A stretch of DNA of 64,000 bases from Nymphaea colorata. Lineage: Eukaryota. Positions 1,770 through 47,196 of this stretch are shown here, one piece after another. The stretch is from NCBI RefSeq assembly GCF_008831285.2, contig NC_045138.2, positions 17,422,001 to 17,486,000 of the forward strand, written 5' to 3'. Position numbers and translations under genes: made by a program. Under the pieces are notes generated by a model. The model searched no databases, was not told where the DNA came from, and saw nothing but the letters and a program-made list of their open reading frames with translations. Every line of letters starts with the position of its first letter. Position 1 is the first letter of the stretch.

Positions 1770-4045
1770 GAGGCATTTGTTTGAGGTTATCCCGGGACAA
1801 ACAAACCGGAGGAAGAAAAAAAAGATTTGACTTGATTTTTCTTTTTTGGTTTTGATTCGAACACGTAGAAAAAGCATTTTCCTTTCTTGAGGCAATGAGT
1901 ATGGAGGATGGAGCAGGGGTGGTGGGCATGATCGGATTAAATTGAGTTTTGGCCGTGAAGAAAAACAGCACACGATTTTGGGGTTCACTTTTAGTACATG
2001 CCTGTTACTTGTTACTAACCATGAATATGCACCTTCTCCCTTCCCCTTTAAGAGCATTTCAAATTCAGCTTCTCTTTCCTTGCATTCTTTTCTTCTCTCT
2101 TCACATTCACATTCTTCGATGCCAGCTGTTGACTAGTTTATTTTGTCGCTCTTTGATTGTTGGCTTTTTGCAGTTTATTTTGTATTCCTTTTATTTTTTA
2201 GCTCCTTTGTCATAATTTTTGTGATTGAATTTTTCATTTTATCGGTTGTATGTGCACATATAAATAAAAAGTACAGCATGTAAGCCAAAGACAAAGTGAG
2301 GAGTCAAATGCTGTTTGTTGAGATCGGAGACCGATTGAAATTCACTTATCATTCAAGTGTGCAGCCGATTCCCCCAATGCAACTGATAGATATGTGCTCA
2401 CCTTTTACATTATTTAATACAGGTCCCCATCTATTTCAAGAAACTCATACGTAACTTCTATCTATAAGAAATATTAGCATTTTAATCATTTGCTGACCTT
2501 GCTGGAATGCAGAGATACTGTCGGGCTTGTCGGTAAAACCAGAGAGAGATCCCAGCAACGGAATAGCGACGGTGGTCGTATGCAAAATTTTTGGAAACTA
2601 ACTGAAAATTTACATAGGAGCAGAGAAAAAAGGTTGAAAAAAAGGGGAGGAGGCGGCGCAAAATCTTGATCATGGGGATATAATGCTCACGGTTCTCCCT
2701 CCACACCTTCTTCCCTCAAAACCAAGCTAAGATTTAGGTAGCAGAGGAAGAAAATGTGGAGGCCACCATCTCCTCCTCCAGCTGCCTCCTCTTACCTTTT
2801 CTTCCCAGACGAAAATCATCAGCTCCCCATCAAAGCCATGTCCTCCCTCTCCGACCACGATGACTCCCATAATCCTCAGCTCCCCTCGCTGGCAATCGGA
2901 TTTGCCAACATAACCGGCTACTCCATCATGTCTAGCCTGGCGATGGGGAAGAAGCCCTTCTGCAGCCAGGCCTATGACACGCTGCAATGGAAGCTTTTGG
3001 AATGCTCAGTGGGTAGGGTAGGCTGCTCAGGATGGCCGTGCCGACTTGCGTGTCAGTCTCCTTAGAGTGGTGGTGGTACGAAATCATGGTGGTGCTTTGC
3101 GGGCTACTGGCGGACCCAAAGGGTACGACGGTTTCTGTGGTGCGGCCAGGATGAAAACAGTCTAGCCACCGTCGCCTCCTTTGGGTCCACCGGCAGCCTG
3201 CAGAGCACCACCATGATTTCGTACCTCCACCACTTTAGGCACACTGACACGCAAGTCAAACCACTCCACAGAGCAGTTCATAAGCTTTCATTGCTGCGTA
3301 GCCGCAGAAGGGCTCCATCCCCATCACCAGGCAAGATAAGATGGAGTAACCGGTTATGTTTGCAAATCCGATTGCTAGCGAGGGGAGCTGATGATTACGG
3401 GAGTCATCGTGGTCGGAGAGGGAGGACGTGGCTGCTTTGATGGGGAGCTGATGATTTTAGTCTCTGAAGAAAAGGTAAGAGGAGGAAGCTGGAGGAGGAG
3501 ATGGTGGCTTGCACATTTTCTTTTCTTCATCTGCTACGTAAAACTAGTCAACAGCTGGCATCAAAGAATGTGAATGTGAAGAGAGAAGAAAAGAATGCAA
3601 GGAAAGAGGAGCGGAATTTGAAATGGTCTTAAAGGGGAAGGGAGAAGGAGCATATTCATAGTGGCTCCTCCTCCTCCTTACCTTACCTTACTAAGAAAGT
3701 CAGAACTGCTTAATCCTTTTCCCCTAATCAACTCACACCCTCATCCCAATCCCCATTATCATATCCATGACGAGCCCACTTTCCAAAACCTGCACGGACA
3801 AGTAACAAGCAACAGGCATTTACTAAAAGCAAACCCGAAATTCGTGTACTGTTTTTCTTCACGGCCAAAACTCAAATTAATCTGCCACCGTTCATGCCCA
3901 CCACCCCCGCTCCTTCCTCCATACTCATCGCCTCAAGAAAGGAAAATGTTTTTTCTACTTGTATGAATGGAAACCAAAAAAAAAATCAAATCCAATCTTT
4001 CTTTTCTTCCTCCAGTTTGTTCGTCACCGCATAACGTCAAAGAAT
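1770..4045. repeat. Large inverted repeat. Outer arms 1770-2139 and 3540-4045, inner arms 2738-3133 and 3168-3536; a ~600-bp insertion (2140-2737) is in the left arm only
   Basis: Direct reverse-complement match, e.g. 2101-2139 tcacattcacattcttcgatgccagctgttgactagttt vs 3541-3579 aaactagtcaacagctggcatcaaagaatgtgaatgtga. Confidence 0.9.
2738..3536. ncRNA. Candidate hairpin RNA/proto-MIRNA locus A: inverted duplication of an internally deleted MATE (DTX48-51-like) gene
   Basis: ~380-nt arms around a ~35-nt loop (3134-3167). Arms translate to MATE motifs LAIGFANITGYS..LAMG.EPFC.QAY..QWKLL and CVS.LEWWWYEIMVVLCGLLADPK. The right arm has ATG TGC AAG CCA (MCKP) at 3516 on minus behind a pyrimidine-rich leader. 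RNA function is inferred. Confidence 0.65.
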
Positions 4046-4276
4046 CACATGCTACATGTTTTTGCCCAAGATGATGATGATGAAGGATATTTCAATAAGC
4101 ATCAATCTAGGCTTGAAAAGTCCGAGTAAAACATCTTTTTGTGTACACAGAAAAACATTTTGAGGACAAAAAGTTAGAACCCTTCAGCTCTCTAGTCTTT
4201 TCCTTTTTGAATTTTACCCTTTTTTAACAAGCCAAACTGGTGACGTTTTTCCAAGGAAAAAAAGTCTTGCCTTCAT

Positions 4277-4325
<49 letters not shown>

Positions 4326-4723
4326 CAGAGAAGCACCAACACAAGATATCAAATACAATCCCCCCGAAAGAAAAACCCTCCCCAGAAAGCAAGCAACCCA
4401 ATATTATTACCTTAAGCACTACTCCCCTGGACTGGAAACAGTGACCCCAAAATGATCATATTTTGAAAAATTTGGTTTTTGTTGTCTCAGGAGCATCAAT
4501 CCGCAATGAAATACTGGAAGGGTTGGAAGTAGGAACCTTTCAAAATTGATGTTGCTTCTGAACTAATTTTATGAACATGGTTAATAATCAAACTGGATGG
4601 AATTTAGCAGATTATTCTTCTTGTGGTTCTAAATCGTTTGTGGTGGTGTAATTTCCAGAAACCATTTGTAGGAAACTCTTGAAAAGATCCCCATTTCTAG
4701 TCCCTGTCCTAAGAGGCTTACAA

Positions 4724-4764
<41 letters not shown>

Positions 4765-5254
4765 GGGGATATGTTGGGTTCTTGCATTTGGGGCATTAAA
4801 AATAAAAAATAGAAGACATGAAAGCATAAGTACTTTATGAAAAAGATAATAAAAAATAACGATAAACTAAAAACTGAGAAGCAAATCAAAAACATATTTG
4901 AGAAACAATTTTCAACCCACTGTAAAACCTCATTACAACATCTCTCACTAAAAATTTCCTAAGAGAGTATGTCATTGAATGGAATGAAGGGCCAAACCTT
5001 TCCCAATGAGGACGACATACTTTTGTTGTATAGGTTAACACCACCACTTTAACTCAACTTTCATATCGGTACCTCATTAACTCAACTTTCATATCGGTAC
5101 CTCATTATTTTTTGCAGTACAAAAAGTTGATGCTACAAAAGTTTGAAACCGAGACTGACTGCTTGCTGGCCCCCCCCTCGAAAATAATATATAAGAATTA
5201 AATGGATTCACTAAGTAAGAGATGAACCAATTACTTGAAATAATCTTTAGGCTG

Positions 5255-7060
5255 ATAAGGAAGGAGAGGATTCTCCAATCTTCCTCATCATTTTCCTCCC
5301 TATATACATTTTATTTTTTTTCAATTATTTAATTATTATGGTCAACATTCCATGAAATGTACCGCCCACTTGCCTTCACATTGGTGAGGGCAAAATTTTA
5401 CAATCTTCCTTACCATTTTTCTCTATATATAATATATTCTTTTTCTTTATTTAATTTTTATTATAAATACTTGATGGAACACTTTTTTTAGCAATGTCTT
5501 CAAATTTTGAATCTGAAAGCTAAATGATTCTATGAACCGGTGAATCGAATCCGAATCATTTGTGAATAAGAATTAATTAAAGATTTATTTAGATATAAAA
5601 ATTAAACAATTGAAAAATCAGTGGGGAGAAGAAGAAAAATTTTTAAAAACTAAAAATAAAAAGAACACAATGAACTCATTTAATGGCGAATCTGCACCTG
5701 CTAGCGACATCTTTTTTAGTAGCAATCAAAACGAGTTATGATTTAAGGTGCAACGAAATAAATTAAAACTTATTGTATGCTCTATTTTAATAGAAAAAGA
5801 GGTTGAAGGGCTATTTGTATAACTTTTGGTCGTCCTTCTATCCAGGTGGAGCGGCGGATCCATATGAAAATCGCCAGATTTTTCGTGGGCATTGAGTTGG
5901 CCTTCAGCGAACTGGTAAAGAGCCGATTTGATTCGAATTGGCCGATTCACCGATTTTAATAACACTGGATTTTACAATGATAGAGGACCGAATTTTGATA
6001 CAATCTTCTTCATCGTTTTTCTCCATATATAATTTTATTTCTCCAATTATTAATTTATATGATAAAGACTAGTTGAAAAGTATTGCCCACTTGTTTTCAC
6101 ATGATTGGGTATGAAGTGAACTAACAAACTCTTGTTCATATAACTAAAACAAAATCAGAAATTGAATCAAATGGACCGATTCTAAAAAAATAATAATAAT
6201 AAGAAAAAGGAAAACATAGAAAAGCTTATCAAAAGTAAATAAACAAAAAAATTTTAAAAAGTGAACAAAAAAATGATGTGTCTCATATGGGGTAAGCTGG
6301 GCATTGAAATAGATTTTGGCAGAGATATAGGCAAAGATGAAACCTAAGGCATTGGCTCTCAGCTTTGAGACCATCAATGAAACTTAATGACTCGTTAGCA
6401 TGAGGAATATTGTGCGAGTGTTTTATGAATCTTACTCAATTATTGAGTTAAATTTATGAACTACTTGAATAATTTTTTAATGAATCTTACAACCTCATGC
6501 CAGATAGTTCAAGGTACCTTTCTGCATCTTATTGACATGCAACCCGTTCCTATTACTGCTCTGTCGTCACATAAAAACATATTTATACCATGTGCCCTAT
6601 ATAATCTACTTTTTATGTATTTTTATTTTTCTAACTTTTTGTAGACTTTCAAGTGTTTTTTTTATTTAATTACCTCGAATCGATCCATTTGATTGATCAA
6701 ACCATGTGAAAACCATGTGAAAACAAGTGGGCAGTACCTTTCATATAGTGTTCATCATAGAAATTAATTAAAACGAAAAGTGGAATTATATATAGGAGGA
6801 AAACGACCGAGAAGATTGAAAAAATCCTTTCTCCATCAATGTACGTCAAAACCAGTGACCGATACTGTTTAAGGAGTATTTATAATGGAAATGAAATGAA
6901 GAAAAAAATAAAATTATATACAAAGGAAAATTATAAAGAAGACTGGAAAGTCTTTCCTCTCGTCGATGTGAAAGCAAGTCGTGGTACATTCTTCGTTGAG
7001 TCTTCGCCATAATAATTAAGTAAATAATATATATATTTAAATAGGTGTGAATAACTTATG
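5255..7060. mobile_element. Degenerate fold-back-type repeat built from ~125-bp AT-rich subrepeats; forward copies at 5260-5480 and 5965-6105, reverse copies at 6715-7060
   Basis: The motif caatcttc..cattttt ctc.atatata..ccacttg.tttcaca recurs in both orientations. Related copies at 11545-16330, 18690-19440 and 39190-39985. No transposase or TSD seen. Confidence 0.45.
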
Positions 7061-7983
7061 CGCCCTAACCCTCTCCAAAAAAAGAAGTTTGGTTTTTTTT
7101 CACACTCGTTGCCTAAACACTTCAACCAGGTCTGAAATTGTTGTCAAAATACTTTGATTTGTGAAATTAAACCTAGTTCTCCAAAGAGTACTACCTAAAA
7201 GCTTTAAAATTTTGAGAAAAAAAAAAGTGCAAAATCGATTGAAAATGAAGAATTATGCCATATCACATACAAGTGAAGAAAAGTCGCAATATCTGAATAC
7301 CAACCCAATGTTGGTCTGCTCCCTTTTCGGGAAAGATATCCATTTTCATGACCAAAAACTCAATAAATGGATCTTTCTAATCTGTTTGAACCAGAGCCAG
7401 ATATATATTTTTTGTGAATTTCATTTCGTTCACGTTGGTACAGGGCTAACCTGATCTGGACCCATTTGTGCAATATCTGCATCTCTATTGGATTTAACGT
7501 TTGGATCAAGAACCAAATAAGAGCACCATTCACCTACTTAGTTCAACTTCAAGGGAGGTCAAGAGTTCAAAACCCATGCTGCTGCAGAATAGGGCCTATC
7601 TAAGCTCAGCAATCCTCTTCTTTTTTGCTTGACCAAGAGAAAGAACGAAACCACATTTAACTAGAAGAGGTCCTCATGAATCGCATATATAAGAAGAAAA
7701 AAGTTACATTCTCATTCAGTTCTCATCTATTATGTCTACTTCGTTTTACAAATTGGTATATGATTTGCCGGCAATTAACATGCCCATCTTTCCCCGTTGT
7801 TTTTTGCTTGCATTAACATATAGAAATGTGATGTGGACCAAAATTTGAATCTATACTTCACCATATCTCTGCTTTTTCAGATTTCTGTATGTCATGTTTT
7901 CAATTCTTGTTCCTTGCTGTCAAAGTAGAAATAAACATATCATTATCTTTAAATGATGTTGTCATTTGTCATACTTTACTTTC

Positions 7984-8750
7984 GATCCCCTAGTTCGTAT
8001 GATTTTCTTTCGAGACAGCACGTTCAAAGGAATGGGTGTTTGCATGGCTGGTGATGCATTAGCAAAGGGAGAGTGGGCTAAGTAGGTTTGGTGTCTCAAC
8101 CGATGACTAGGGGGAGAAAGGAAGAGAACCGGTAGATAGGGCCAGCACTCGAGTCGGAGAGTTATCCGTCTACATGACCCTACACACGTTTTAATGTGAG
8201 CACCAAAAAGAGGCTAAAGAATTTTTTTTTTTTGGTTTTTTTTCCTCCCTCTCTTTTTTGTTTCTAGAAGTGTTTGTTTATTTGACTGAGCCAGGCTGGG
8301 TAGCGTTTTGATGGGAAGATCTTTTTATTAGAATCTCCCGTCTTTCGTCCTTAGACTTAAATTTTATGTATTTTTTTTAAAAAGAAGCATGGGAAGAATT
8401 TTTTTTTTATATATAAATGCATAAAATTTAAGTCGGAGGAGGAGGGAAGGGGATTTGAAAAAGAATATCTTTCCACCAAAGTGCAACATAGTCTAGCTCA
8501 GTCAAAAAACATTTACATGTGCCCCCATTTCCCTCTCTTGGTGCTCACATAAAAAGACGTGTCTACTCATGTAAACGATTAAGCTGGGCTCCAGTACCCT
8601 GTACCGGTTCCGTTCTATCCTTCCACTGGCTATCGGTTGGCCCCCAATAACAATTTAACCGACTCTTCCCATTGCTAATGCATCATTAACCACACAAACA
8701 CGCCTTGCTTCTACTGTGTCGACTTGAAAGAAAATTAGGCAAGCGGGGTC
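7984..8750. mobile_element. Non-autonomous fold-back element with long TIRs (MULE/MITE-like), copy A
   Basis: The two halves are reverse complements (gatcccc...ggggtc; gatgcattagcaa vs ttgctaatgcatc) around an AT-rich centre. No TSD recognised. Confidence 0.6.
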
Positions 8751-9339
8751 AGAAAGGTTGGAAATGAACAAAACTGCTGAATAGAAGTATATATATGTAT
8801 ATTAAATAAGTTGAAGGCAACGAGTCATTTTAAGTTTCATCCAATCACGGCCACCCAATGTATTATCGGGCAAACACAACGAAAAAAACTGTCCATAGCA
8901 TCGCAGACTCGAAATGCATTGGTGGTGTGTTGTAAAAAGGCCAAAGGATTTCTTTATCAACAGTGCTCTGCAATTGATCAGGTGATACTTATGTGAATGG
9001 TTCCACTAGAAAACTGTATGGGAATGGTTAAGTTCACTTTAACTTCAAAATTCACCAAAAATACAAGATAGTTGACCAAATATTAGTGTTATAATATAAT
9101 TAGAGCAGTAGCGGAGGCAACTGTGTTGTGATGTAGGCTGTTGCCCACACGAGCCCTTGAGAAGGCACTAAAGTAAAACCATGCGGACTCTTAAAATGCT
9201 TTTTGTTTGTAAAGTACTAAAAATAACATATTACATCCTCCAGAACAATGTAAGCTTTTTACAATTTATGACTTGAACAAAAAATATTTTATTTAAAAAG
9301 TTTTTTGGTTTGAGATGGAAAGGTCAAGCAAGGAGGGGA

Positions 9340-10080
9340 AGCTTCATCCTCTTACCTTTTCGCACCCCAGAAAATCGTCAACTCCCCATCAAAGCCACGT
9401 CCCCCCTCTCCGACCACGATGACTCCCATAATCATCAGCTCCCCTCGCTAGCAATCGGATTTGCAAACATAACCGGTTACTCTGTCATATCTGGCCTGGT
9501 GACGGGGATGGAGCCCTTGTGCGGCCAGGCCTACCACACGCAGCAATGGAAGCTTATGGACTGCTCTGCGGGTGGGGTGGGCTGCTCCGGTTGGCCGTGC
9601 CGACTTGAGTCTGCTTGGAGTGGTGGTGGTATGAAATCATGGTGGTGCTCTGCGAGCTGCTGGCGGACCCAAAGGAGGTGATGGTCTCTGTGGTTTTTTT
9701 ATGGTGCGGCGAGGACGAAAATAGTCTCACCACGGTCGCCTCCTTTGGGTTTGCCAGCAGCCTACAGAGCACCACCATGATTTCGTACCACCAACACTCC
9801 AAGCACACTGACACGCAAGTCAGCATGGCCATCGGAGCAGACCACCCCACAGAGCTGTACAGAAGCTTCCATTGCTGCTTGTCGTAGGCCTGGCCGCAAA
9901 AGGGCTCCATCCCCGTCATGAGGCCAGATATGACGGAGTAACCCGTTATGTTTGCAAATCCGATTGCTAGCGTGGGTAGCTGACGATTATGGGAGTCATC
10001 GTCGGAGAGGGAGGACGTGGCTGCTTTGATGGGGAGCTGACGATTTTGGATTGGGAAGAAAAGCTAAGAGGAGGAAGCAG
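9340..10080. ncRNA. Candidate hairpin RNA/proto-MIRNA locus B, MATE-derived paralog of A
   Basis: Arms 9340-9690 and 9728-10080. ORF-track translations show LAIGFANITGYSVISGLVTGMEPLCGQAY and EWWWYEIMVVLCELLADPK on +, and CVSVCLECWWYEIMVVLCRLLANPKEATV on -. Confidence 0.65.
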
Positions 10081-10594
10081 GAGAAGGAGATGGTGGCTTG
10101 CACACTTTCTTTTCTTCCTTTGCTACGTAAAACTAGTCAACAGCTGGCATCAAAGAACGAATGTGAATAGAGAAGAAAAGAGTGCAAGGAAAGAGGAGCT
10201 TTTTTAATCCAATCTCCATACTCATCGCCTCAAGAAAGGAAAATGCTTTTTCTACTTGTTCGAATGAAAACAAAAAAAAAAGAAAATCAAATCCAATCTT
10301 TCTTTTCTTCCTCCAGTTTGTTCGTCACCGCATAACGTCAAAGAATCACATGCTACATGTTTTTGCCCAAGATGATGATGATAAAGGATATCTCAATAAG
10401 CATCAATCTGCAGGGGCAGTCTGATAGGCTCGAAAAGCCCAAGTAAAACATCTTTTTGTGTACACAGAAAAACATTTTGAGGACAAAAAGTTAGAAGCCT
10501 TCAGCTCTCTAGTCTTTTCTTTTTTGAATTTTACCCTTTTTTAACAAGCCAATCTGGTGACGTTTTTTCAAGAAAAAAAAGTCTCGCCTTCATG

Positions 10595-10625
<31 letters not shown>

Positions 10626-11082
10626 AATTTTTAGTGACAGGGAAGCACCAACACAAGATACCGAATACAGTCCCCCCAAAAGAAAAGCCCTCATCGGAAG
10701 GCAAGCAACCCAATATATTTCATCTGTTTTTTTCCCTTAAGCACTCCTCTGAACAGTGACCCCGAAATGATCATATTTTGAAAAATTTGGTTTTTGTTGA
10801 TTGGATAAGATTTTTCTCAGTGACCTTTTCTTTTCATTTTCTTCCTTTCTCAGGGGCATCAATCCATAATGAAATACTGGAAGGGTTGGAAGTAGGAACC
10901 TTTCAAAATTGATGTTGCTTCTGAACTAATTTTATGAACATGGTTAATAATCTAACTGGATGGAATTTAGCAGATTATTCTTCTTGTGGTTCTAAATCGT
11001 TTATGGTGGTGTAATTTTCAGAAACCATTTGCAGGAAACTCTTGAAAAGATCCCCATTTCTAGTCCCTGTCCTAAGAGGCTT

Positions 11083-11122
<40 letters not shown>

Positions 11123-13014
11123 GGGGATATGTTGGTTTCTTGCATTTGGGGCATTAAAAATAAAAAATAGAAGACATGAAAGTAAAAACTGAGAAGCAAA
11201 TCGAAAACATATTTGAGAAACAATTTTCAACCCACTCAAAAAGCTCATTACAATATCTCTCACTAAAAATTTCCTAAAAGAGTATGTCATGGAATCGAGT
11301 GAATGCCCAAACCTTCACTTCTCCGATCTCAATCCTCTTAGGGTTCAGGACGACCTACTTTTGTTGTATAGGGTTAAACACCACGATACTTTATTATTTT
11401 TTGCAGTACAAAAAGTTGATGCTACAAAAGTTTGAAACCGAGACTGACTGCTTGCTATCCCCCTCCCTCCAGAATAATATATAAGAATTAAATGGATTCA
11501 ATAAGTGAGAGATGAACCAATTACTTGAAATAATCTTTAGGCTGATAAGGAAAGAGAGGATTCTCCAATCTTCCTCATCATTTTCCTCCCTATATGCGTT
11601 TTATTTTTTTTTCAATTATTTAATTATTATGGTCAACATTCCTTGAAAAGTACCGCCCACTTACCTTCACATTGGTGAGGGCAAAATTTTACAATCTTCC
11701 TTACCATTTTTCTCTATATATAATTATATTTTTTTCTTTATTTAATTTTTATTATAAATACTTGATGAAACAATAGTTCACTTGGTTTTAGCAATGTGTT
11801 CAAATTTTAAATCTGAAAGCTAAATGATTCTATGAACCGGTGAATCGAATCCGAATAGTTTGTGAATAAGAATTAATTAAAGATTTATTTAGATATAAAA
11901 ATTAAACAATTAAAAAATCGGTCAGGAAAAGAAGTAAAATTTTAAAAAACTAAAAAAAACACACACACACACACAATGAACTCATTTAATGGCGATTCTG
12001 CACCTGCTAGCAACATTTTTTTTAGTAGCAATCAAAACGAGTTGTTATTTAAGGTGCAATTAAAAAAATTAAAACTTCTTGTACACTCTATTCTAATAAA
12101 AAAAAAGGTTGAAGGGCCATTTGTACAACTTTTGGTCATCCTTCAATCAATACATATATAAGGTGGAGCGGCAGATCCATACGAAAATCGCCAGATTTTT
12201 CATGGGCATTGAGTTGGCGTTCAGCGAACTGGTAAAGAACTGATTTGATTCGAATTGGCCGATTCACTGTTTTTAATAACACTGGTTTTTACATTGATGA
12301 GGATGGGATTTTGATTCAATCTTCTTCATCGTTTTTCTCCATATATAATTTTATTTCTCCAATTATTAATTTATATGATGAAGACTAGTTGAAAAGTATA
12401 GCCCACTTGTTTTCACATGATTGGGTATGAAGTGAACTAATAAACTCTTGTTCATATAACTAAAACAAAATCAGAAATTGAATCAAATGGACCGATTCCA
12501 AAAAAATAGTAATAATAAGAAAAAAACATATAAAAGCTAACTAAAAGTTAAAAAACAAAAAAAAAGAACAAAAAAATGATGCGTGTCACATGGGGTAAGC
12601 GGGGCATTGAGATAGATTTTGGCAGAGATATAAGCAAAGAAGAAACCTAGGGCATTGGCTCTCAGCTTTGGGACCATTAACAGAGCTTACGACTCGTTTG
12701 CATAAGGAACATTGTGCGAATGTTTTATGAATCTTACTAAAAAATTGAGTTAAATTTATGAGCCACTTGAATAATTTTTTCATGAATCTTCTCCAATATT
12801 TAAGGCAGATTCATAAAACAACCTCATGCCAGACAGTTCAAAAGTACATTTCTGCATCTTATTGATAGGAGCCCGTCCCTACTGTTTTATTGTCCCATAT
12901 AAATATATCTATACCCAGTGCCCTATATATTTTATTTTATGTATTTTTATGTTTCTAACTTTTTATAGACTTTTAAGTGTTTTCTTTATTTAATTACTTA
13001 GAATCGATCCATTT

Positions 13015-16000
13015 ATTAAACAAAATGAGCTATACAAAAAAAGGGAAAGGATAACAAAGAAAAAACTACTATCCTTCAGCACAGTATAACCAAAGGCTGA
13101 CTCAGCTATTCCGAAAAACAATTGTCATAACACTAGATACAAGAAAAAACTAAAAATCAGTGTGGGTTAGCCAGCATAGAAACAAACGTCCCTCCACTCC
13201 TTGACGTAGGAAGTAATGAAGGATCCAAAATCAGCCGTAGGATGATCCCTTTCAATATTGACATTGTAGTGGAAATCATTGACAAGCATGTGGAACTCTG
13301 ACCATATTCTACTGTTGTCATAATGTTGTTGTATCCTCCAGACAACGGCTTCGATCCTAGTGCAAATAGTAACACAACCGCCATACTCCTTAGGATACCT
13401 GAACAACTTTTCCATCTTCTCCAGCTCACCAGCGAGTACCCTGCCCCTTGGGCTCAACAATATAGCCATACCATTAGCTCCGTCACTGAAATAAGAGTTC
13501 CCAGCAACCCTCAACTTCCCAGCAATTTCGACTTGTATGACCTCAAAAAAAAGCATCTTAGAAGGTTCTCTACGCCTGGCAGAACACATAAGATTGGAAA
13601 TGGCTCAAGTACGGACAGTGCCTTCCGTTTCCTTGGTCCCTTTGATACCCAAGAACCCAAGTACGGACAGTGCCTTCCATTTCCTTGGTCCCTTTGATAC
13701 CCAAGAAAGTCGCCTCACATGTCGACCATACTTCTTCTTTAATATTAATGGCTGCACTAGATTTGTCTTCATGCATCAGCTTATTGCAATGCCACCAAAT
13801 TTGCCAGCACATAATAGAGAATGTGATTCTCCAACACATCCTCAGCCACCCGTCATGCACCTTCCTATGCATCCATCGTTTGATTTCAAACTAGAAATTA
13901 CGAGTGGGTGACTAGATGACACCGAACTTGGCCAAGATCCATTCCCAAATTCTCTGGCTACCTAGCAATGGAGGATAATATGTTCATTAGTTTATTCAGC
14001 TTTCCTACAAAAAAAGCAACTGTTATCAAGTTGGAAACCTAGTTTCTTGATTCTGTCTAAAGTGGGTAGTCTGCCCTCGCTTGCAAGGAAGCTGAACCAG
14101 TATGTACTAGATGAAGCATTTCCTTGCCAAATATATTTCCTTTATCTCTCTCTCTCTCCTTGGCTCCCCTAGTATGATCAAGAATGTCTCCAACTTCAAT
14201 ACAAGATTGATGGTTGTCTGTCCAAACACCTGGTCAGCTTCATTAGATAGAGGGATAGAGTCTATGTTGCCAATGAAGCCTATGCACACATCCTCAACAA
14301 CATTTGTGCCCCCTTGCTCAAGAGCACTTTATTTTTAATCGAGATATTGAGTTCTCTCGCAATATTAACCAAACTATCCCCACTAATATGCTGGATAAGT
14401 GGGCTACCCTGCCAAGGATCGAGCCAGAAACGACAACGGCTGCCATCCCCAAGACTATTCTTTTGGAGGTACTTATCCTTGTACACTTTGGCCCAGACGC
14501 CATCATCCATCAAGAGTATGCTACACCTACAAGCCAACAACACGTGGTTCAAGTCCTCCACTTTGTGTAGGCCAATGCCCGCAAGATCATATGAGTTACA
14601 TAGTCTAGCCCAACTGATGTGGTAGATATGCCAAGTAGACTCACCATCATTCCAAAGGAATCTCTTGCATATGTTTTCAAGTTTTTTATTAATTCTACGA
14701 GGAAGACTTCAGACCGTCATCCAATAGTGGGGGAGGGTACTCCAAGATATTCAACTGGAAGAGAGCCCATCGTCCATTGAAGCATGTTCCCTAGATCCTC
14801 TACCCTACAATCCAAAGTTTTGTCCAGGAATACAACAAATTTTTCTTTGTTCACTTTCATACCGGCGAACTTCTCAAATTGCTCTAGGATCTCTTTAAGG
14901 AGCTTGTGGAAGCCTTAGAAACCATGAGAACATCGTCTGCATACATAACTGCTCATGTCTCCTGAGAAACATTCCGGATCTTGGGAATTTGGATGTTCTT
15001 GTTGCGGACCTCCACTTGAATATGACGATTGAAGATTTCCATAACTAGAATAAAAAGGTATGAAACATCGGGTCCCCCTGTCTGAGTCCTTTAGAAGCAA
15101 TGAACTTGTCCCCCAAGCGACCATTAATCACCATCTCGTACGACACTGAAGAAACACATTTTATCACTAACTCTGTCCATGTGGGGTGAAAGCTCAACAC
15201 ATGCATGCTTTTCTGCAAAAATTTCCAAGTTCTATCATAAGCCTTTGAGAGTTCCAACTTAAGAAAGCAACCCCCTTTCGACCAAAAATCTTTTGAATTA
15301 GCGATCTCATTTTCCCATAAAATGTTGTCTTGAATTTGCCTCCCTTTAGAGAAAACAACTTGGTTCCTTTGAACCAGTCACATGACGACATCCCTCATCC
15401 TGATAACTAGTATTTTGCAATAATCATATAAATGGTGTTGCATAAGGATATTGGCCTGTAATCCTTAACTCTGATGGCATTCGGTTTTTTTGCTATCAAG
15501 CAAATCATGTTGTGGTTAACACTTCCAACAAGTTTCAACCACATCATTTTCTATGATGCTCCAACAATCCTTGTAGAAATAGTTCGGGAAACCATCTGGG
15601 CTAGTAACACTATCCTTGTAGTTCGGGAAACCATCTGGGCCAGTAACACTATCCTTGTCAAGATTCTTGACCGCCATTGCTTTCTCCTCTCTCATGATTG
15701 GTCCTAACAACCACTGGTTTTCTTCATCGGTAACCATGTCGCCATCTACTATACCTACAAACAGTTCTCCAGAAGCTACATCAGACCCCAAAAGCTGCTG
15801 AAAATGAGAGGTACAAGCCTTCAAGATATTGGCTTCCTCTGTATGTGTTTCCCAATCAACTTCGATGAACCTTATATACCGCTTAGCCGTTGGCCATGAT
15901 ATGAAAGAAAGCTATGTTTTTGTCCCCCTCTATGAGCCATCTAACCCGACACCTTTGCTTCCACATTATTTCTTCCATACGGAGGAGCAAACCTCTAACC

Positions 16001-16018
16001 TCATACTCCTGTTTAGTA
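13015..16018 (-). mobile_element. 5'-truncated, frameshifted L1-type LINE retrotransposon: ORF2 reverse transcriptase plus probable RNase H remnants
   Basis: Minus-strand fragments GPDGFPNYFYKDCWSII, DYRPISLCN (~15440-15465), SKAYDR, KGLRQGDP, YADD (14932-14943) and RFWLDPW. Absent from the paralogous unit A. AATAAA at the 3' end (~13012-13017 on minus). Confidence 0.92.
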
Positions 16019-17187: not shown

Positions 17188-18011
17188 GATCCCCTAGTTC
17201 GCATGGTTTTATTTGGAGATGGCACGTTGGAAGGAATGGGTGTTTGCATGGCTGGTGATGCGTTAGCAAAGGGGGAGTGGGCTAAGTAGGTTCGGGGTTC
17301 CAACTGATAGCTAGGGGAGGAAGGAAGGGAACCGGTAGAAGGGGCCAGCACTCGAGCCTGGGCTGGCCGTCTACATGAGTGGACACGCGTTTTAATGTGA
17401 GCACCAAGAGGAGGCTAAATGAGATGCTTTTTTTTTTTTTAATTTTCTTCACTCTCTTTATTCTTTGCAAAAGTTTTTGTTTCATTTGACTGAGCCAGGC
17501 TGGGTAGCATTTTAGTGGGGAGATCTTCTTAGTGGAACCCCCATTCTCTCTTCCTCCCTCTTAAATTTTATGTATGCATGTATTTATTTATTTATCTAAA
17601 CAAAGTATAAGATGAAATACTTTTTTTATATAAATAAATATATAAATACATAAAATTTAAGACGGATTCAAAAAAGAATATCTTTCCACAAAAATGCTAC
17701 CCAGCCTGGCTAAGTCAAATAAACAAAAAATTTCACAAAGACAAAAAAGAGAGTGAAAAAAAAAAACATGTACATGTGCCTCCACCACCTCCCTTCTCTT
17801 GATTCTCACGCAAAAACGAGTGTCCACTCATGTAGACGATTAGGGGGGGCTCCAGCCTCTCCTACCGGTTCCTTTCTTCCATCATGCTGGCTATCGGTTG
17901 GCCCCCAACACCTATTTAACCCACTCGCCCCATTGCTAATGCATCACTAGCCACCCAAACACCCATTCCTTTCACCGTGCACTCTCGAAAGAAAACCAGG
18001 TGAGTGGGGTC
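17188..18011. mobile_element. Non-autonomous fold-back element with long TIRs, copy B
   Basis: aaggaatgggtgtttg..tggctggtgatgcgttagcaa (17232-17269) pairs with ttgctaatgcatcactagccacccaaacacccattcctt (17933-17971). Paralog of 7984-8750. Confidence 0.65.
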
Positions 18012-18576
18012 CAATTATGGCCACCCAATGCATTATAGGGCGGGGATGACCAGATAAACTGTCCATGATATCGAAATGCATTCGTGGTGTGCGGTGAAAG
18101 GCCGAAGGATTTCTTTATGAGCTGTACTCTACAATTGATCAGGTGGAGGTTACAATTGTATGGGAATGGTTTCAATGGAGAACTGTATGGGAATGGTCAA
18201 GATCGCTTCAATTTCAAAATTCACCAAAAAAGTACACGATAGTTAATCAAATATTAGTGTTATAATATAATTATAGCAGTAGCGGAGGCAAATGTGGGCT
18301 GATGTAGGCTGTTGCCCGCACGAGCCTGGAAAAGACACTAAAGTAAAACCATGTGGACTCTTCAAATGTTTTTTTTTTGTAAAGTACTTAAAATAACATA
18401 TTACATCCTTCAGAACTATGTAAGCATTTTACTATTTATGACCTAAACAAAAAATATTTTTATTAAAAAGTTTTTTGGTTTGAGATGAAAAGGTCTAGCA
18501 AGGAGGGCTAGCTTTCTCCAATGGACGGGAACATACGATAGGGTATAACCGTGATACGTTAAATAAAAAATAAAAA

Positions 18577-18609
<33 letters not shown>

Positions 18610-21600
18610 TACAAATAACATTTCTTCTATGTTTCAACTTGCATATTTGTATCTTCCTTTTATAATAGATTGGTATTACAAAGAATTCGAAATAAAAACT
18701 GATCGACCCTTGTTAAGTTATAGTGAAAAAGAATCATCTCCTGAATCTAATAGGGAAGGGAACAATTTGATTCAAATCCACCTATTCAGGCCAATTCTCA
18801 GTGATTTTACGACAATGCTCTCAACCCCTTGAATAGCAAAAACAATATCAACAATAATATAATAGGGAATTGGATAGATTTCCCCAAGGCTGAGAGATGC
18901 ACCAGTTCCCTGAAACAATTCTATGTAAATAAGGAAGAAGAGGATTCTCCAATCTTCATTTTCATTTTTCTCCATATATAATTTTACTTTGTTTCAATTA
19001 CTTGATTATTATGGTCAACATTCCATGAAAGGCACTGCCCACTTGCTTTCACATTGGTGAGGGGGCAAAATTTTCCAATCTTCCTTATCACTTTTGTCCA
19101 TATATAATCGTATTCTTTTTCTTTATTTAATTTCTATTATAAATACTCAATGAATACAACTGTTCACTTGTTTTTACCAATGTTATCAAAGTCTGTTTTT
19201 GATGGGATTGGAAAGTGATGATTCAGAATAGGTGAATCGAATGTGAATCAGAATCATTTCTGATTAAAGATGTATTAGAGACTTGTCCATATAATCAATA
19301 GAAAATCAGAAATCGAATGAAATGAACCGATTCCAAATAATTAAACTTATGAAAATGAAAAGCGTATAAAAGTTTTAAAAAAATAAAAAAAAAATATTAG
19401 AAAATAGAAGATAAATTAATTATGTATGGTACATGGAGGTGGCACCAACATTCAACTACATTTTTGCAGGACACTGGTTTTTATTACGGTAGAAGCTGCA
19501 GAAATGCGCCTGACTAAAATGAATGCAAGGAAAAATCACTAGCAATATGCCCTCAATTGTGATGTGATATATCATGATCATGCCCCATGAGGAGGACAGT
19601 GCAGGGAATCTAACTCGCAAACCCTTTTTATTAGAGATTGCTAACTAATCAAAGGCACATCTAAAATCAATTTCCGGATATTTCTTATCTTAATAACTAG
19701 TAATGACTAATGAGAGATCTTATGATTTGTAATAGCGTAATGCAACACAAGTAGACCCATCTAGCCACTCATACATTGAAATATGAGTAGACTAGGTTGG
19801 GTCAAAAAAAGTCGTTTTTGGCTCGTGTCCAGAAGGGATTTATATATGCAAGATTTCTGCAATTTTCTGTTCAGATTTGGAGGCTATCTCCCAATACACT
19901 ACTTGAATTTTGATGCATTACATCGAGTAATCTGTTTAATCTTTTCTGCCCAACAAGGGCGGAGACAAAAATTTTTCATGAGGGAGGCCGAATTAAGGTT
20001 TCTAAATTTTAACTAGGCCGAACGTATCATTTTTCAAAATTTTTATATAGAAATTTTCTAAAGTTTACATGTAAATTTTCTAAAGTTTACATGAAAAATA
20101 GTTAAAAAAAAATTTAACTATTTCTCTTATTATAGTTCAGCATTCATTATGTAGTCGAGTTGTGTCAAGTTCTTGCAACTAGAACTCGACTCACTGGACA
20201 TTTCGAACATACATTTGAACGCAAGCTTGACTCGTTTCTAAATGAGTCGAGTTCTGAGAATCAAGTTCAGGTCGAGCTTGAATTGGCTCGACAGATTGGG
20301 TGGAAGCTTTGGCATTCTTTGAGGCCATAGGTCAGACCCTACTCACACAAAAATTATGTTCTTTTGCCAATAACCATAATTCCTTTTGTTGGGTCAAATA
20401 TTACATTTGTTTCAACTAGACTACTTTGGTTGTCGCCTATGCGCATGGCATTAAGGTATCAAAGTAAATTACCAAAATGTCCTTAAGGCAGCTGGTCGGT
20501 TTTGTATTAATTTGGGCCCTTTTCCATTTATGGCTGTGTCATGTCTGATTTCATGTGTATTTAGTTCATTTATATTTGGTCTTTTTACATCCATATAATT
20601 TGAAAATCAGGTTAATAGGAATTTCAGGGTAGATTATTCTATTTAAATATTTTATGTTGTGGTCTTTTACGCAACCAAATCTCAAATTCTACACAGGCCA
20701 GTTATTATTTTGAAACTTAGTTGTATGGTTTTTCCTCAAATTTAGCATCAAATGTATCCTTCATGATAGACTGAGCCAAATTCAATATTTAAGTGACATT
20801 ATGTTGATGAACAATATGGTTTATTTTAGCACAATGATCGATCTTGTCCATCGACCAACAACTCTCAAATTGACCAGATTGAAATAAATATATGCTATAA
20901 AGGAGTACCCGAGCGGTTGGAATATTGTTTTAAAGATTCCGCTTTCTGCATGGTAGAAAATCACACTAATCCAATTTGTTTTCGGTGCATTTGGAACTTT
21001 TGAACTCAAACCATTTATATTCTTAAGCATACTTAAGGCAAAACAAGAAGTAAAGACCCTTATAGTTTACCTTATTTTAGTTTATCTCGATGTAATATTT
21101 AATTTTATGTTGACATTACTAAGTGTAGTACGATATGTGAATAAAAAATAATCTAATTAAGTTTGTTTTAATTGAAAACATGTTGGTTTTCTGTCACATT
21201 AATCTCATCTTTAATTAGTAAACAATTGACAACAAGAATCTTGGTCAGTTTCTAACAATATAAAAAAGTTACATTTCCTTTCTCCCTTGTAGTTGATTCT
21301 TTTGTTGAAAAGTTCCCTTTTTCAAACTCAACTTTGGAAAGGTTCGCAAAAATCAGCGAGCATTTAAAAGGTGTTTTTGTCTTTTTTCGTAAAAAAAAAA
21401 GTCCCTTTCAGATCGCCCAACCTTGGCACATAAAAATCACATGCATCTTAAAATAACATAAATGAGTTATTTGCTATCTTCAATACAGAAGAACAGAACA
21501 GACCTCAAACTAAAAGCTCCATTTAGAACTTTGTTGACGTGACTCCATAAGGAGATTTAAAGAACAGAAAGAAAACTCGAGTTCTTTGTGAAGGATGTGA

Positions 21601-21695
21601 GCAAGAATTCAAAATACCCACTGGAATTATTATATAAAGAGAGTGGCAGACTAAGGGAGGGAAATCAAATCCACAGAGAAATAGAGAGAGAGAGT

Positions 21696-22236
21696 ATGGC
21701 ACCTGAAGATTGGACAATAGAAACAGACGTATTAAATGATTACATTCAGGAACAGGCAGTCAAGTTGGGGATAGAAAAGAAGATTGAACTCAATTTTCCT
21801 GTCAACCATTGTTTGTCTTTCTCTTCTCTTCCATAGGTAAATTACAGTTTATTTATCATTCAGTATGCAGTAATGTTTTTTTCTTTCTTCCAGCCAACTA
21901 TCATTGGGATAAGAGAAGATAGAGAAGGCATCCTAAGGGTATTGGACAACGAGCAGCTGGAGACGTGCATGATTATGCAGGGCTATGATCCGTATGTGTT
22001 TATATATATATATATATATATGATCATTAGCTTTTATTTATTAGGGTGTGTTTGTTTCGACAGTTTAAACAAATTGAGGATCTTCCAAACGCAACCTGAG
22101 TTCTTTTCACATTTGATCTTATTTTCTTAGGGATTTGGTACTTTGCGTGCGGCTTCCTGCAAACCGGGAAGATCTTCAACGAAGGGCTGAAGCAGCTGGT
22201 TTTAAGGTAGAGGTGGAGCCCGTAGAAGAATCTTGA
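21696..22236 (+). CDS. Small uncharacterised 3-exon protein, family copy 1 (~102 aa). Exons 21696-21800 (donor uncertain), 21894-21991, 22131-22236
   Basis: TATATAAA at ~21631. MAPEDWTIETDVLNDYIQEQ../PTIIGIREDREGILRVLDNEQLETCMIMQGYDP/DLVLCVRLPANREDLQRRAEAAGFKVEVEPVEES*. Exon 2 length (98 nt) and phases match copy 2. The donor homologous to copy 2 is GA (21786), so a cryptic GT at 21801 is assumed. Confidence 0.55.
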
Positions 22237-22506
22237 ATGATGGTTTCTTCATTTTCTTCAGTTCAGTTCGGGGTTTTGTGATGTTGAAGACCAGAATATC
22301 TTTGCTTTCTTTTCTTGGAACAGTCATAATGTAACATTCCATGAGTTTGTGTTTACATGAAAATAAGTAAATTAAGAATCCGAATACGAGAATGTGTTGG
22401 ATGTGATTTTGGATACCAGATCTAGATCCTGTTATATGATCCAAATGTGGATCTTGTTCTACTATGCCTGACCCTCCTTGGAATGTCGAAGCTGGGAGGA
22501 GCAAAG

Positions 22507-22537
<31 letters not shown>

Positions 22538-22870
22538 GACCACCAACCCACAAACTGGCGACATTGAAAACAAATATATATTATATGCAGAAAATCTCAC
22601 TAATGCAATTCGTTTTCAATGCATTCCGAACATTTGAACACAAACCATTTATAATCTTAAGGATACTTAAATCAAAACAAGAAGTAAAATAGATTTAAAT
22701 CGTCCCCACCATGAATATCAGTAAAAGTAAAGGCATATAGTTTATCTCGATGTAATATTTAATTTTATGTTGGCATTACTAAGTGTTAGTAAGATATGTG
22801 AATAAAAAATAATCTAATTAAGTTTGTCTTAATTGAAAGCGGCCTGTTGAAGCTGGGAGAAGCAATGGAC

Positions 22871-22920
<50 letters not shown>

Positions 22921-23660
22921 CCCTGTGTGTGTTAATTCTACTTGCTCCCATTGTGATATGGAAATAACCCGATTTGGAGCCGTTTATGCAGGATCTGTGT
23001 TTTTGTTTGAATTAGTTTTTTTGGTAACTTTATTGGTTCGGAAGTAAGAAAGCCGTTCACCTTAGTTTAAGTTCAAGGGAAGTCAAAAAGTTACAATACT
23101 CAAGGTGGCATATAGAGGACAAATCATGACTAACCCATGCTTATTATTGAGGCCTAAAGAAAAGTTGTGTGGGCAAATGTCCCATCCCGTGTGTCAGAAG
23201 TTCCGATTCCAAACCTGGGGTTCATGTAATTTCTACTTCCCATGACAAACAAATGTAATTAACTCTTCTTAAAGGTGCCACCTTTTATATGGAAATGTTT
23301 GCATATCGTTGTGCAGGAAGATGTTCATCGTGAAAATGTAAATGATTTTTCTTCATTTTTACGTTATTAAAATCCTTGCGACCTAAAAATCTTTTATAGG
23401 AATAGCAAACTTGGCACTTCAAAATTAATTGGAGGTTAGGATTTACCAGGCCATGAAAATCATGCTTTGCATAAACCAGCCATTAACTAAGTTAAAAGAT
23501 TAGGGGGACCTTGGTTGCAACGGAACTAAGTTATAATAATAATAATAGTAATGACGTGACTCCTTTAAGGACCAAATTGGGGTCAATATTGTTTGAATGG
23601 GCAGAGTTAATGAACCAAGTATTGTTATGAACTCCGGACTGATTCTTATAATTTTCTTTA

Positions 23661-23924
23661 GGATGCGTTTGATTCCCCGCAGATCTCAAATCCGAGGGAA
23701 TCTCAAATCCATGATTGCTGAACTCGACAGTTTTATTAAACAGTGGATTCAGCAGCACCCTCTCCCAACGTGAATTTCAAATCCTCATTTTTAATGTGAA
23801 AAACTTAGATTTGAAATCGGATTTTGGGAAGTGGAGGGGGTGGCCGACTTGAAAACCGCAGATCAGATCTGCAATGATCTCGGATCACCACAGATCTGAG
23901 ATCCACAGTAATCAAACGTGACCC
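23661..23924. mobile_element. Possible PIF/Harbinger (Tourist-like) MITE
   Basis: Imperfect short TIRs ggatgcgtttgat...atcaaacgtgaccc, with TTA on the left flank. Confidence 0.3.
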
Positions 23925-24984
23925 TATGTTCATTGTATGACAATATGAATAATATGTTATGCGGAAAACCAAACAATGTTTTTGTATAATATGTTATGTT
24001 GGAGGGGGTGTTCATTGATGTTATGTTGATGAACAATATGATTTGTTTTAGCACAATGATTGATGAAACCTCTAAGCTACGTTTCGTTTTGTTCCTTGAC
24101 TTCCAACCCACAAAATAAATATATGCTATAAAAGGGGATCACCTGAGCGGTTGGAATATTGTTTTAAAGGTTTAACTTTCTGCATAGTAGAAAGTCTCAC
24201 TCAGCCTATTTGTTTTAGATGCATTTGGAACGTTTCCATTTATATTCTTATGTATACTTGAAGCAAAACAAGAAGTAAAATAGATTTAAATCTTAACCAT
24301 CATCAATATCAGTAAAAGTAAAGACAAATGGTTTATCTTATTTTAGTTTATCTCGATGTAATATTTAATTTTAATATTGGTAAGTATAATTAGATATGTG
24401 AATAAAAAATAATCTAATTAAGTTTGTTTAGTTGAAAGCGTGTTGGTTTCCTGTCACATTAATCTCAGCTTTAATCAGCAACCAATTGATAAAAAATAAT
24501 CTTGATCAGTTTCTAACAACATAAAGAAGTTTCATTTCCTTTTTTCTATTACATATATAGTTGATTCTTTTTTGAAAAGTTCTCATTTTTAACTTTGGAA
24601 AGGCCAGCGAGTATTTGAAGGGTGTTGTTGTCCTTTTTTACAAATAAAAATTGTCTTTCAAATAGCCCAACTGTGGCACTAATATGTGTGGATTAGTAAA
24701 CACAAAAAAAAAAAAAAAGTTCAGATGCAATTTGAAATAGCATAACTGAGCTATTTGCTATCTTCCATAAATAAGAATAAAACTGCTCTCAAACTAAAAA
24801 CTCCATTTATAACCTTGTTCACATGACTCCATTAGGAGGTTGAAAGAAGAAAAAGAAAAACTCACATAGAGTTCTCTGTGACTGTGAGGGCGATGGATGT
24901 GAGCAAAATGCCCTTATATAAAGGGAGTGGCAGACCATGGTCGTGATATTAAATAGAGAGAGAGCGAGAGAGAGAGGGAAGACT

Positions 24985-25707
24985 ATGGCGTCTGAAGATT
25001 CGAAAGCATCGCAGGAAACGACGTCTGAAAATTCGATGGGGACTATAGCGTTTGAAGATTCAAGAGCAGTACTGGAAACGTCGTCTGAAGATTCGAAAGC
25101 ACCACAGGGAACGACGTCTGAAAATTCGATGGGGACTATAGCATTTGAAGCTTCGAGAGCAGTACCGGAAACGTCGTCTGAAGATTCGGGGGAGTCTGTG
25201 GCGTTTGAAGCAGTACAGGAAACGGCGTCTGTAGATTCTAGAGCAGTCCTGGAAATGCTAAATGATGAACTTCAAGAACAGACAGAATTCGTATTGGGGC
25301 CATTAAAGGAATCTGTACTTAGCTTTCACATTAACCATTTTCTTTTTCCTTGCATTACATTTGATTTATTGTTATGTATTAATGTTTTTCCTTGTTTCTA
25401 GCCAACCATCGTTGGCATCACAGAAGAAAGAGAAGTCATCGTAAGCATATGGGACAACGATGAGCTGGAGACGTGCATTATCATACAACGTTATGACCCG
25501 TATGTATTATGGATTATTGTTTTTTCTATATGAACATTGATGGATTTCTGTTTTCTATATGATCACTGGCTTTTATCTGTCAATTCTTTTCACGTTTGAT
25601 CTTGTTCTGTTAGGTCTTGGAATTTTTGCATGCGGATTCCTGCAAACCAAGAAGATCTTAAACAAAGGGCCGAAGCAGCTGGTTTTAAGGTAGAGGTGGT
25701 GCCCTAG
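24985..25707 (+). CDS. Small uncharacterised 3-exon protein, family copy 2 (173 aa, Ser/Glu/Thr-rich repeated N-terminus). Exons 24985-25314, 25402-25499, 25614-25707
   Basis: TATATAAA at ~24915. Canonical GT-AG introns of 87 and 114 nt give a 522-nt open frame ending PSWNFCMRIPANQEDLKQRAEAAGFKVEVVP*. Homologous to copy 1. Confidence 0.75.
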
Positions 25708-31744: not shown

Positions 31745-33933
<2,189 letters not shown>

Positions 33934-36485: not shown

Positions 36486-36929
36486 ATAATACTTTTTAGG
36501 AAAATGACTGCAGATTAAGTGCACTTCCAAATACACATATAATACTCACACAACACAACTTCATTAATATAGAAATTAGAAACTAACTCCAACATATCAA
36601 TTCACCAAAAAAAAAAAAAATTGGTCATGCTTGAAAAATACAGTTGCATTAATATGAAAGCTACCTACCTTCAACAAATGACTACTTATTTTGTTTTTTC
36701 TAATGTTTTAACACAAAGCAATGACTAGATATACTTTTCTTTTTAAGTGTAAGCAGCTTCACATGCTTGGTCAGTGTCAGTCACTTTTTCTCTTCTTTTA
36801 GGAGTACATCTATTGCTTTCTCAGGAATACAACTAAGACATTTGGAGCACTGAAGTCTTGTTTAGTTGCCTAAATGACAAGTCTTGCTTAAAATATAATT
36901 TCAATTAAAGGCCAAAGTTCTTGGCAGAA

Positions 36930-47165: not shown

Positions 47166-47196
<31 letters not shown>

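What the first reader, a model, noticed from the sequence alone, without database searches (positions are those of the whole stretch)
2811..10050. Compensatory arm-to-arm substitutions preserve pairing in each MATE hairpin
Seen: at three or more sites both arms of A share one state and both arms of B share the other. Site 1: aaatcAtc (2817/3452) vs aaatcGtc (9377/10041). Site 2: ctccAtc (2925/3342) vs ctc[t/c]Gtc (9484/9934). Site 3: gaTgggg (2944/3323) vs gaCgggg (9503/9915). These are A:U pairs in A and G:C pairs in B. Inference: selection for dsRNA structure or intra-hairpin gene conversion after duplication. Caveat: all three are at CpG-context sites, where methylation-driven parallel mutation is frequent.
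Basis: partly seen in the sequence, partly recalled or inferred. Interest (0 to 1): 0.72.

Follow-up and report, generated by a model that had tools for sequence, protein, structure and literature searches.

The report
Water-lily transporter-gene hairpins, matched mutations
Two duplicated fold-back repeats in a water-lily genome, built from pieces of a MATE transporter gene, share four arm-to-arm matched changes, but these are few among about 40 unmatched ones per hairpin and likely come from methylation-driven mutation plus occasional DNA copying between arms, not from selection to keep the RNA paired.

Summary
The three sites are real (site 1 is at 2818, not 2817), and there is a fourth (3064/3236 vs 9617/9800). 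Hairpins A and B are a tandem duplicate of one inverted repeat made from 5' fragments of a Nymphaea DTX48-like MATE gene.

'Preserve pairing' is not supported:
- The arms differ at 42/307 and 37/307 columns.
- G·U and A·C mismatches are balanced (12:12 and 10:8).
- Arms do not group by hairpin.
- Four matched sites against 1.5–2.1 expected gives P=0.06–0.16.
- The neighbouring duplicated hairpin pair shows 1 matched, 1 cross and 15 side-shared sites.

Sites 1, 2 and 4 are G→A changes at CG or CHG sites, as methyl-C decay would give. Site 3 is not decay. The parent residue and related genomes have T, so both B arms gained C. Related genomes also appear to carry a transversion in both B arms. 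This hints at occasional short-patch copying between arms, but each case has an 11–34% chance alone.

The locus is a new example of a gene-derived inverted repeat (a likely hairpin-siRNA source), one of seven long inverted repeats in 40 kb. Expression was not shown. No earlier scan note covers it.

The parts
2730..3133 (+). Hairpin A left arm (AL): DTX48-like fragments, parent aa 1-39 (2754-2870), a 15-nt filler copy of 2814-2828 (2870-2884), aa 94-131 (2886-2999), aa ~272-316 (3005-3139)
   Evidence: tblastn of P0125, codon table
3134..3170 (+). Hairpin A loop, holding a third, out-of-order MATE piece (LWCGQDE, parent aa ~160-168)
3160..3545 (-). Hairpin A right arm (AR), same fragments; 3-nt insertion, 11-nt and ~18-nt deletions
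1777..2139 (+). Outer left arm of A: inverted copy of the right flank (85-95%), cut off from AL by ~590 nt of other sequence and lacking ~200 nt
3541..4044 (-). Outer right arm of A, directly upstream of the ATG-bearing fragment on the - strand; likely the parent's 5' UTR and promoter (inferred)
   Evidence: position relative to MCKPPS
9340..9690 (+). Hairpin B left arm (BL); starts at parent aa ~9, carries a 6-nt deletion
9691..9733 (+). Hairpin B loop with the same LWCG.DE piece
9734..10134 (-). Hairpin B right arm (BR)
2780..6701 (+). Segment duplicated at 9340-13024 (83-84% identity); the duplication that produced A and B
2818..2818 (+). Site 1 (pairs with 3452; B 9377/10041): CpG to CpA in both A arms, recent
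   Evidence: parent R22; run X2 has G in 7 of 7 contigs laid here (145.9/145.9 depth)
2925..2925 (+). Site 2 (pairs with 3342; B 9484/9934): CpG to CpA in both A arms, older
   Evidence: parent V107; A state also present in runs X1, X2, X4, X6
9503..9503 (+). Site 3 (pairs with 9915; A 2944/3323): T to C gain in both B arms, not decay
   Evidence: parent M113; T in 2613/2613 (X1), 267.4/267.4 (X2), 32.2/35.5 (X4), 1268.5/1326.2 (X6)
3064..3064 (+). Site 4 (pairs with 3236; B 9617/9800): G to A at a CHG site
   Evidence: parent-type contig inferred to read CTG; A in 899/1143 of X6 depth

Best explanation
A and B are two copies of one inverted repeat made from rearranged 5' pieces of a DTX48-like MATE gene, and their four matched sites likely arise at the DNA level: repeated decay of methylated cytosines (sites 1, 2, 4) plus probably an occasional short patch copied from one arm to the other (site 3), with no sign of selection on RNA pairing.

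Shown: gene origin, fold-back, whole-hairpin duplication, the direction of change at sites 1-3, the absence of a wobble bias, and a non-significant excess.

Inferred: methylation of the arms, the copying events (tracts would have to be under ~20-25 nt), and that the locus is read through from the captured 5' region into a hairpin RNA diced into siRNAs that methylate the locus and could act on the parent gene.
For: Origin: arms match N. colorata XP_031480770.1 at 81/104 to 95/116 codons by amino acid. Folds are -631 and -588 kcal/mol, z -37.5 and -43.

Methylation-type decay is common. On a permissive census, 21 of 56 CG-context sites show T/A in at least one arm, against 14 of 99 CHH sites.

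The same process gives shared states between arms that do not pair. AR and BL share the decayed base at column 2875. AR and BR share it at column 3101, where X4's two BR-type contigs lack it (A in 19.1 of 36 depth; 194/4012 in X1; 6.4/404 in X2). At columns 2934 and 2960 both partner arms changed to different bases, breaking the pair.

For copying: site 3 is a T>C gain in both B arms (chance 0.11, or 0.21-0.30 with rate variation). A G>T transversion at 9559 sits in both a BL-type and a BR-type contig in X4 (6.29+3.28=9.58) and X2 (28.3+3.91=32.2) while the window's BL has G (chance 0.13-0.34). Strict cross-type columns number 0 against 1.3-1.75 expected.
Against: Pure chance is not excluded (P=0.06-0.16).

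Identical runs around the matched sites are only 2-22 nt, so no clean conversion tract is visible. The C/D hairpin pair shows no hairpin-shared excess (1 of 200 columns, against 1 cross and 15 side), though its arms are far more diverged (22-31%).

The 9559 case was found after the fact and rests on matching depth sums of unphased contigs; unlisted contigs could give other sums. One X4 BR-type contig lacks T at 9503, so part of site 3's history is unresolved.

Methylation, transcription and siRNAs were not measured. The template-switch paper I read deals with spacers of 70 bp or less, whereas these sites lie 170-660 nt from their partners.
Confidence: 0.5

Rival explanations
1. All four matches are independent parallel mutations, with no copying and no selection.
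For: Expected 1.5-2.1 vs 4 seen, P=0.06-0.16; 4 of 7 two-arm decay sites, P=0.17. Parallel decay between non-partner arms is seen at columns 2875 and 3101. The C/D pair has 1 hairpin-shared and 1 cross site. There are no long identical tracts.
Against: Site 3 needs a double T>C gain, and the relatives' 9559 a double transversion (each 0.11-0.34 by chance). Three or four of the matches fall in hairpin A; the post hoc P for four there was about 0.014 when site 3 was still counted as decay, an overstatement now that site 3 belongs to B.
Confidence: 0.33
2. The hairpin RNA is functional, and selection fixed second-site changes that restored Watson-Crick pairs.
For: All four sites are paired in both + strand folds. 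Both hairpins are kept in at least three related genomes. 113-116 of 357 21-nt windows have no bulge and at most one mismatch. Run X4 (kind not on record, 33 million letters of contigs) has one 485-nt contig across AR-loop-AL and uneven depths, as RNA might.
Against: G·U vs A·C mismatches are 12:12 and 10:8. There are 42 and 37 uncompensated differences plus bulges. Both-arm changes to non-pairing bases occur at 2934 and 2960. The excess is not significant.
Confidence: 0.12
3. Long-tract concerted evolution homogenises the arms within each hairpin, as in sex-chromosome palindromes.
For: Hairpin-shared substitutions (4) equal side-shared ones (4); the by-hairpin tree is not rejected (p-AU 0.38).
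Against: Arms of one hairpin are no closer than same-side arms. Shared indels, both shared transversions and the shared loop follow side. The by-side tree has the best likelihood.
Confidence: 0.05

Closest known systems
Gene-derived inverted repeats as siRNA loci / proto-MIRNAs (inverted-duplication model; NBS-LRR examples in PMC5026261, passages read; Allen et al. 2004 seen only as cited there)
   Same: Both arms derive from a protein-coding gene and fold back into a long stem; the parent gene is intact elsewhere.
   Different: The source is a DTX48-clade MATE gene on another contig, the arm is a mosaic of three out-of-order pieces with filler, and the hairpin was duplicated whole. Small RNAs are not shown here.
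Populus ARR17 partial duplicates forming a hairpin that yields 24-nt siRNAs (PMC9636151, passages read)
   Same: Rearranged 5' gene fragments in inverted orientation, away from the parent gene.
   Different: No sex-linkage is known here; siRNAs and parent methylation are untested; the arms are 12-14% diverged.
Arm homogenisation by template switching in imperfect inverted repeats (PMC8604942, passages read) and palindrome arm-to-arm conversion (Rozen 2003, seen only as cited)
   Same: Would yield matched changes in both arms without RNA selection.
   Different: The yeast cases have short arms, spacers of 70 bp or less and multi-base changes; palindromes are homogenised over long tracts. Here there are single-base matches in 350-400-nt arms with no overall homogenisation.
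Drosophila hpRNAs, such as the locally duplicated mini-Tmy cluster (10.1101/2021.08.05.454923, passages read)
   Same: Gene-derived hairpins multiplied by local tandem duplication.
   Different: Those are shown siRNA sources with known targets and near-perfect stems; this is a plant locus with no expression proof.

Membership tests
Gene-derived inverted repeat / hairpin-siRNA locus | Both arms homologous to a protein-coding gene | tested here: met
Gene-derived inverted repeat / hairpin-siRNA locus | Long stable fold-back with 21-24-nt duplex windows | tested here: met
Gene-derived inverted repeat / hairpin-siRNA locus | Transcribed across both arms | tested here: inconclusive
   Three RNA runs gave no read at 95% identity or more, and their organism was not shown. 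X4 spans the A loop but is not on record as RNA.
Gene-derived inverted repeat / hairpin-siRNA locus | Produces siRNAs that act on the parent gene | not testable with these tools
   No small-RNA, degradome or methylome data were offered
Known MIRNA family | Match to an Rfam model at gathering score | tested here: not met
   0 matches in the window; best weak match 46.9 bits against a cut-off of 90
Structure under compensatory selection | Two-sided changes exceed independent expectation | tested here: inconclusive
   4 vs 1.5-2.1, P=0.06-0.16
Structure under compensatory selection | One-sided changes biased to G·U on the transcribed strand | tested here: not met
   12:12 and 10:8
Palindrome-type concerted evolution | Arms closer within a hairpin than to same-side paralogues | tested here: not met
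   0.137 and 0.121 vs 0.137 and 0.124; AU test
Short-patch arm-to-arm copying | Linked derived changes transferred together between partner arms | tested here: inconclusive
   Only single-base cases (9503; 9559 in relatives); identical runs 2-22 nt
Pack-MULE or foldback transposon | Terminal inverted repeats with a target-site duplication | not tested
   No formal test. By eye the outer arms fade at ~1777 and ~4044 with no evident duplication, and the repeat consists of gene sequence.
Reproductive PHAS locus | miR2118 or miR2275 site and phased small RNAs | not tested
   No trigger sequences were on hand from a tool and no small-RNA data were available; both miRNAs are reported at low level in Nymphaea

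The most novel reading that the evidence does not exclude
A Nymphaea cluster of seven long inverted repeats holds an expressed, multi-species family of DTX48-derived hairpins that tune this dosage-sensitive developmental transporter through siRNAs. Their arms repair each other by very short template-copying patches over 170-660 nt, making pseudo-compensatory base pairs without RNA selection. The locus would be a natural test system for how young plant hairpins keep pairing on the way to becoming MIRNA genes.
Probability: 0.25. Interest if true: 0.6.

Novelty: new member of a known kind. Interest (0 to 1): 0.3.

Why it matters
Matched changes in hairpin arms are often read as proof of selected RNA structure. 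This locus shows how methyl-C decay, and perhaps arm-to-arm copying, can mimic that signal in a plant, and it offers four arms, a parent gene and relatives for a clean test. If the hairpins make siRNAs, they would point at a DTX48-clade gene; in Arabidopsis over-expression of that clade alters plastochron, branching and flowering (PMC12643059, passages). As it stands, it is an undescribed but ordinary kind of locus with a borderline statistical signal.

Tried and rejected
No whole genome is held for this window, so other copies and the parent's DNA in this assembly could not be read directly.

The run search said 'no RNA holder listed'. RNA runs X20, X24 and X21 laid 57, 28 and 0 reads, none at 95% identity or more, mostly distant DTX paralogues. 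The organism in these runs was not shown, so this is no test of expression.

Rfam: nothing at gathering score; 13 weak matches at E<=1, all below cut-off.

The first alignment misplaced the BR indels at columns 101-140 and was replaced. The parent-residue offsets in blocks 1 and 2 were wrong and were corrected.

I considered reading X4's contigs as an intermediate U·G state at site 3 (BL-type T, BR-type not T). I did not rely on it: another X4 contig has the same number of differences from BL (5) as the window's AL over 9399-9482, so X4 may hold two divergent haplotypes.

Parallel decay in both A arms as the cause of site 3 was rejected.

I could not recognise a coding source for hairpins C, D, E or G in six-frame translations read by eye.

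Earlier scan notes: none for this genome, none relevant by words or sequence.

Literature searches found no paper on this locus and none on arm-to-arm conversion in plant gene-derived hairpins among the listed titles (only the top 15-20 of 35, 99 and 109 hits were listed). Subscription papers and supplements, such as Nymphaea MIRNA or PHAS tables, were not seen and may annotate it.
Full report
Setting. The window is plant DNA. Its PPR protein clusters with a Nymphaea thermarum protein and lies on a 44.6-Mb contig, so the genus is Nymphaea; the species, probably N. colorata, is inferred. Self-comparison shows inverted repeats at 2730-3545 (A) and 9341-10078 (B), outer arms of A at 1777-2139 and 3541-4044, and a direct duplication of 2780-6701 at 9340-13024 (83-84%). 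A and B fold at -631 and -588 kcal/mol, z -37.5 and -43 against 20 shuffles each. No Rfam family reaches its gathering score.

Origin. The arms match Pfam MatE weakly. Each arm joins parent aa 1-39, a 15-nt filler copied from just upstream, aa 94-131 and aa ~272-316; the loop holds aa ~160-168. Arms agree with the parent at 95/116, 81/104, 90/103 and 91/111 codons, and at six codons all four arms differ from it, so the arm changed before it was inverted. The shared loop and shared indels show that the hairpin was then duplicated whole.

Observation. The three sites are confirmed, with site 1 at 2818, and a fourth lies at 3064/3236 vs 9617/9800. All are paired in the + strand folds. I counted over AL 2781-3130 (353 columns, 307 gap-free) and left out the 5' flank, where BL is not homologous, and the loop-proximal columns. 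This gives 4 hairpin-shared substitutions, 4 side-shared substitutions (2 transversions, 2 at CpG), 2 side-shared indels and 0 strict cross columns.

Distances are AL-AR 42/307, BL-BR 37/307, AL-BL 42/307, AR-BR 38/307, AR-BL 39/307 and AL-BR 49/307. The tree is nearly a star; by-side has the best likelihood and no topology is rejected (p-AU 0.73, 0.38, 0.13). With independent decay at CG, CHG and CHH sites (11 three-arm sites removed as private gains), 1.45-2.1 hairpin-shared sites are expected, P(>=4)=0.06-0.155. HKY+G on the by-side tree gives 1.5-1.7, P=0.065-0.089. Against the null, the chance of four in one hairpin was about 0.014, but that figure counted site 3 as decay in A and was chosen after the fact. 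If pairing of one transcript strand were selected, G·U mismatches should outnumber A·C; they are 12:12 in A and 10:8 in B. At two positions both partner arms changed to different bases and broke the pair. The neighbouring duplicated pair C/D gives 1 hairpin-shared, 1 cross and 15 side-shared sites in 200 columns.

Direction of change. Parent residues R22 and V107 make B ancestral at sites 1 and 2; M113 makes A ancestral at site 3. I laid 7 of the 24 listed runs; the difference tables showed 40 of 360 and 40 of 51 rows. Site 1 is G in all 7 contigs of X2 laid there, so both A arms likely changed recently. The A state of site 2 is present in X1 (three contigs that match AL and two AR alleles by depth), X2, X4 and X6. 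The A state of site 4 makes up 899/1143 of X6 depth, and the parent-type contig is inferred to read CTG, a CHG context. Site 3 is T in all depth of X1 (11 contigs) and X2 (15), in 32.2/35.5 of X4 and in 1268.5/1326.2 of X6.

Further clues from relatives rest on depth sums of unphased contigs and are weaker. A G>T transversion at 9559 lies in both a BL-type and a BR-type contig in X4 and X2 but not in the window's BL (chance 0.13-0.34). The A shared by AR and BR at column 3101 is missing from BR-type contigs, a direct case of parallel CpG decay in arms that do not pair. The 3-nt insertion shared by AR and BR appears in only one BR-type contig each in X1 and X2 and in none in X4 or X6, so even one side marker may reflect slippage or exchange between copies. 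Identical runs around the matched sites are 2-22 nt, so any copied patch is very short.

Mechanism. The most likely account (0.5) is DNA-level: methyl-C decay for sites 1, 2 and 4 and an occasional short copy between arms for site 3. Pure chance (0.33), selection on RNA pairing (0.12) and long-tract concerted evolution (0.05) follow. That plant inverted repeats are methylated and that methyl-C deaminates to T is established knowledge (recalled), not measured here. The locus most likely works as a gene-derived hairpin-siRNA source. The right arm continues into sequence upstream of the start codon, which could drive read-through (inferred); 113-116 of 357 21-nt windows are near-perfect duplex; and both hairpins persist in related genomes. 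Expression is unproven. The three RNA runs are no test. X4, whose kind is not on record, has a 485-nt contig across the A loop and uneven depths (A-type 19-56, B-type 3-6, parent-type 5.6), which hints at RNA.

Comparison. It resembles the inverted-duplication loci described for NBS-LRR genes (PMC5026261, passages), the Populus ARR17 fragments (PMC9636151, passages) and locally duplicated Drosophila hpRNAs (10.1101/2021.08.05.454923, passages). Arm homogenisation by template switching is known for short yeast repeats (PMC8604942, passages). Inverted-repeat-derived phasiRNAs are mentioned for asparagus (10.1101/2020.04.25.061721, passages). PMC5398296 (passages) added nothing specific. Searches found no description of this locus; supplements and subscription papers were not seen.

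Verdict. New member of a known kind; interest 0.3.

Noticed in passing
window 8000-8735 and 17204-17998: A second duplicated hairpin pair (C, D), each with a nested inner stem; arms 22-31% diverged and grouping by side; no coding source recognised.
   Followed up: partly
window 36926-37398, 35949-36485, 34937-38958: Three more long inverted repeats: E (88% of bases paired), G (139-nt arms, 96%) and F (~800-nt arms, 92%, enclosing G, E and an 80-nt tandem repeat at 37465-37869). With A-D this makes seven in 40 kb.
   Followed up: partly
window ~20450-26230, ~31750-35500, also 18-1180: Several diverged copies of a multi-kb block with apparent exon-intron layout and a shared upstream motif (families D4, D6, D7, D9, D16); the arms of F are made from its 3' part, so F may also be a gene-derived hairpin.
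   Followed up: no
run X6, laid on window 9340-9700: 158 contigs laid, up to 28 sharing one variant, with arm types not in the window; the hairpin family may be larger in that organism, or the organism may be polyploid.
   Followed up: no
window 13170-16010: Decayed LINE-like reverse-transcriptase fragment on the - strand (RVT_1, E 8.7e-06).
   Followed up: no
window 28352-31234 (-), 41698-47465 (-), 59665-62466 (-): A CSE1/exportin-2 gene as one unbroken 960-aa frame, a bZIP gene (bZIP_C domain) and a PPR gene.
   Followed up: no
window 33738-33931: About 97 TA repeats.
   Followed up: no
window 9007-9021, 18158-18197: A short motif (tgtatgggaatggt) once between C and B and twice after D; meaning unknown.
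   Followed up: no
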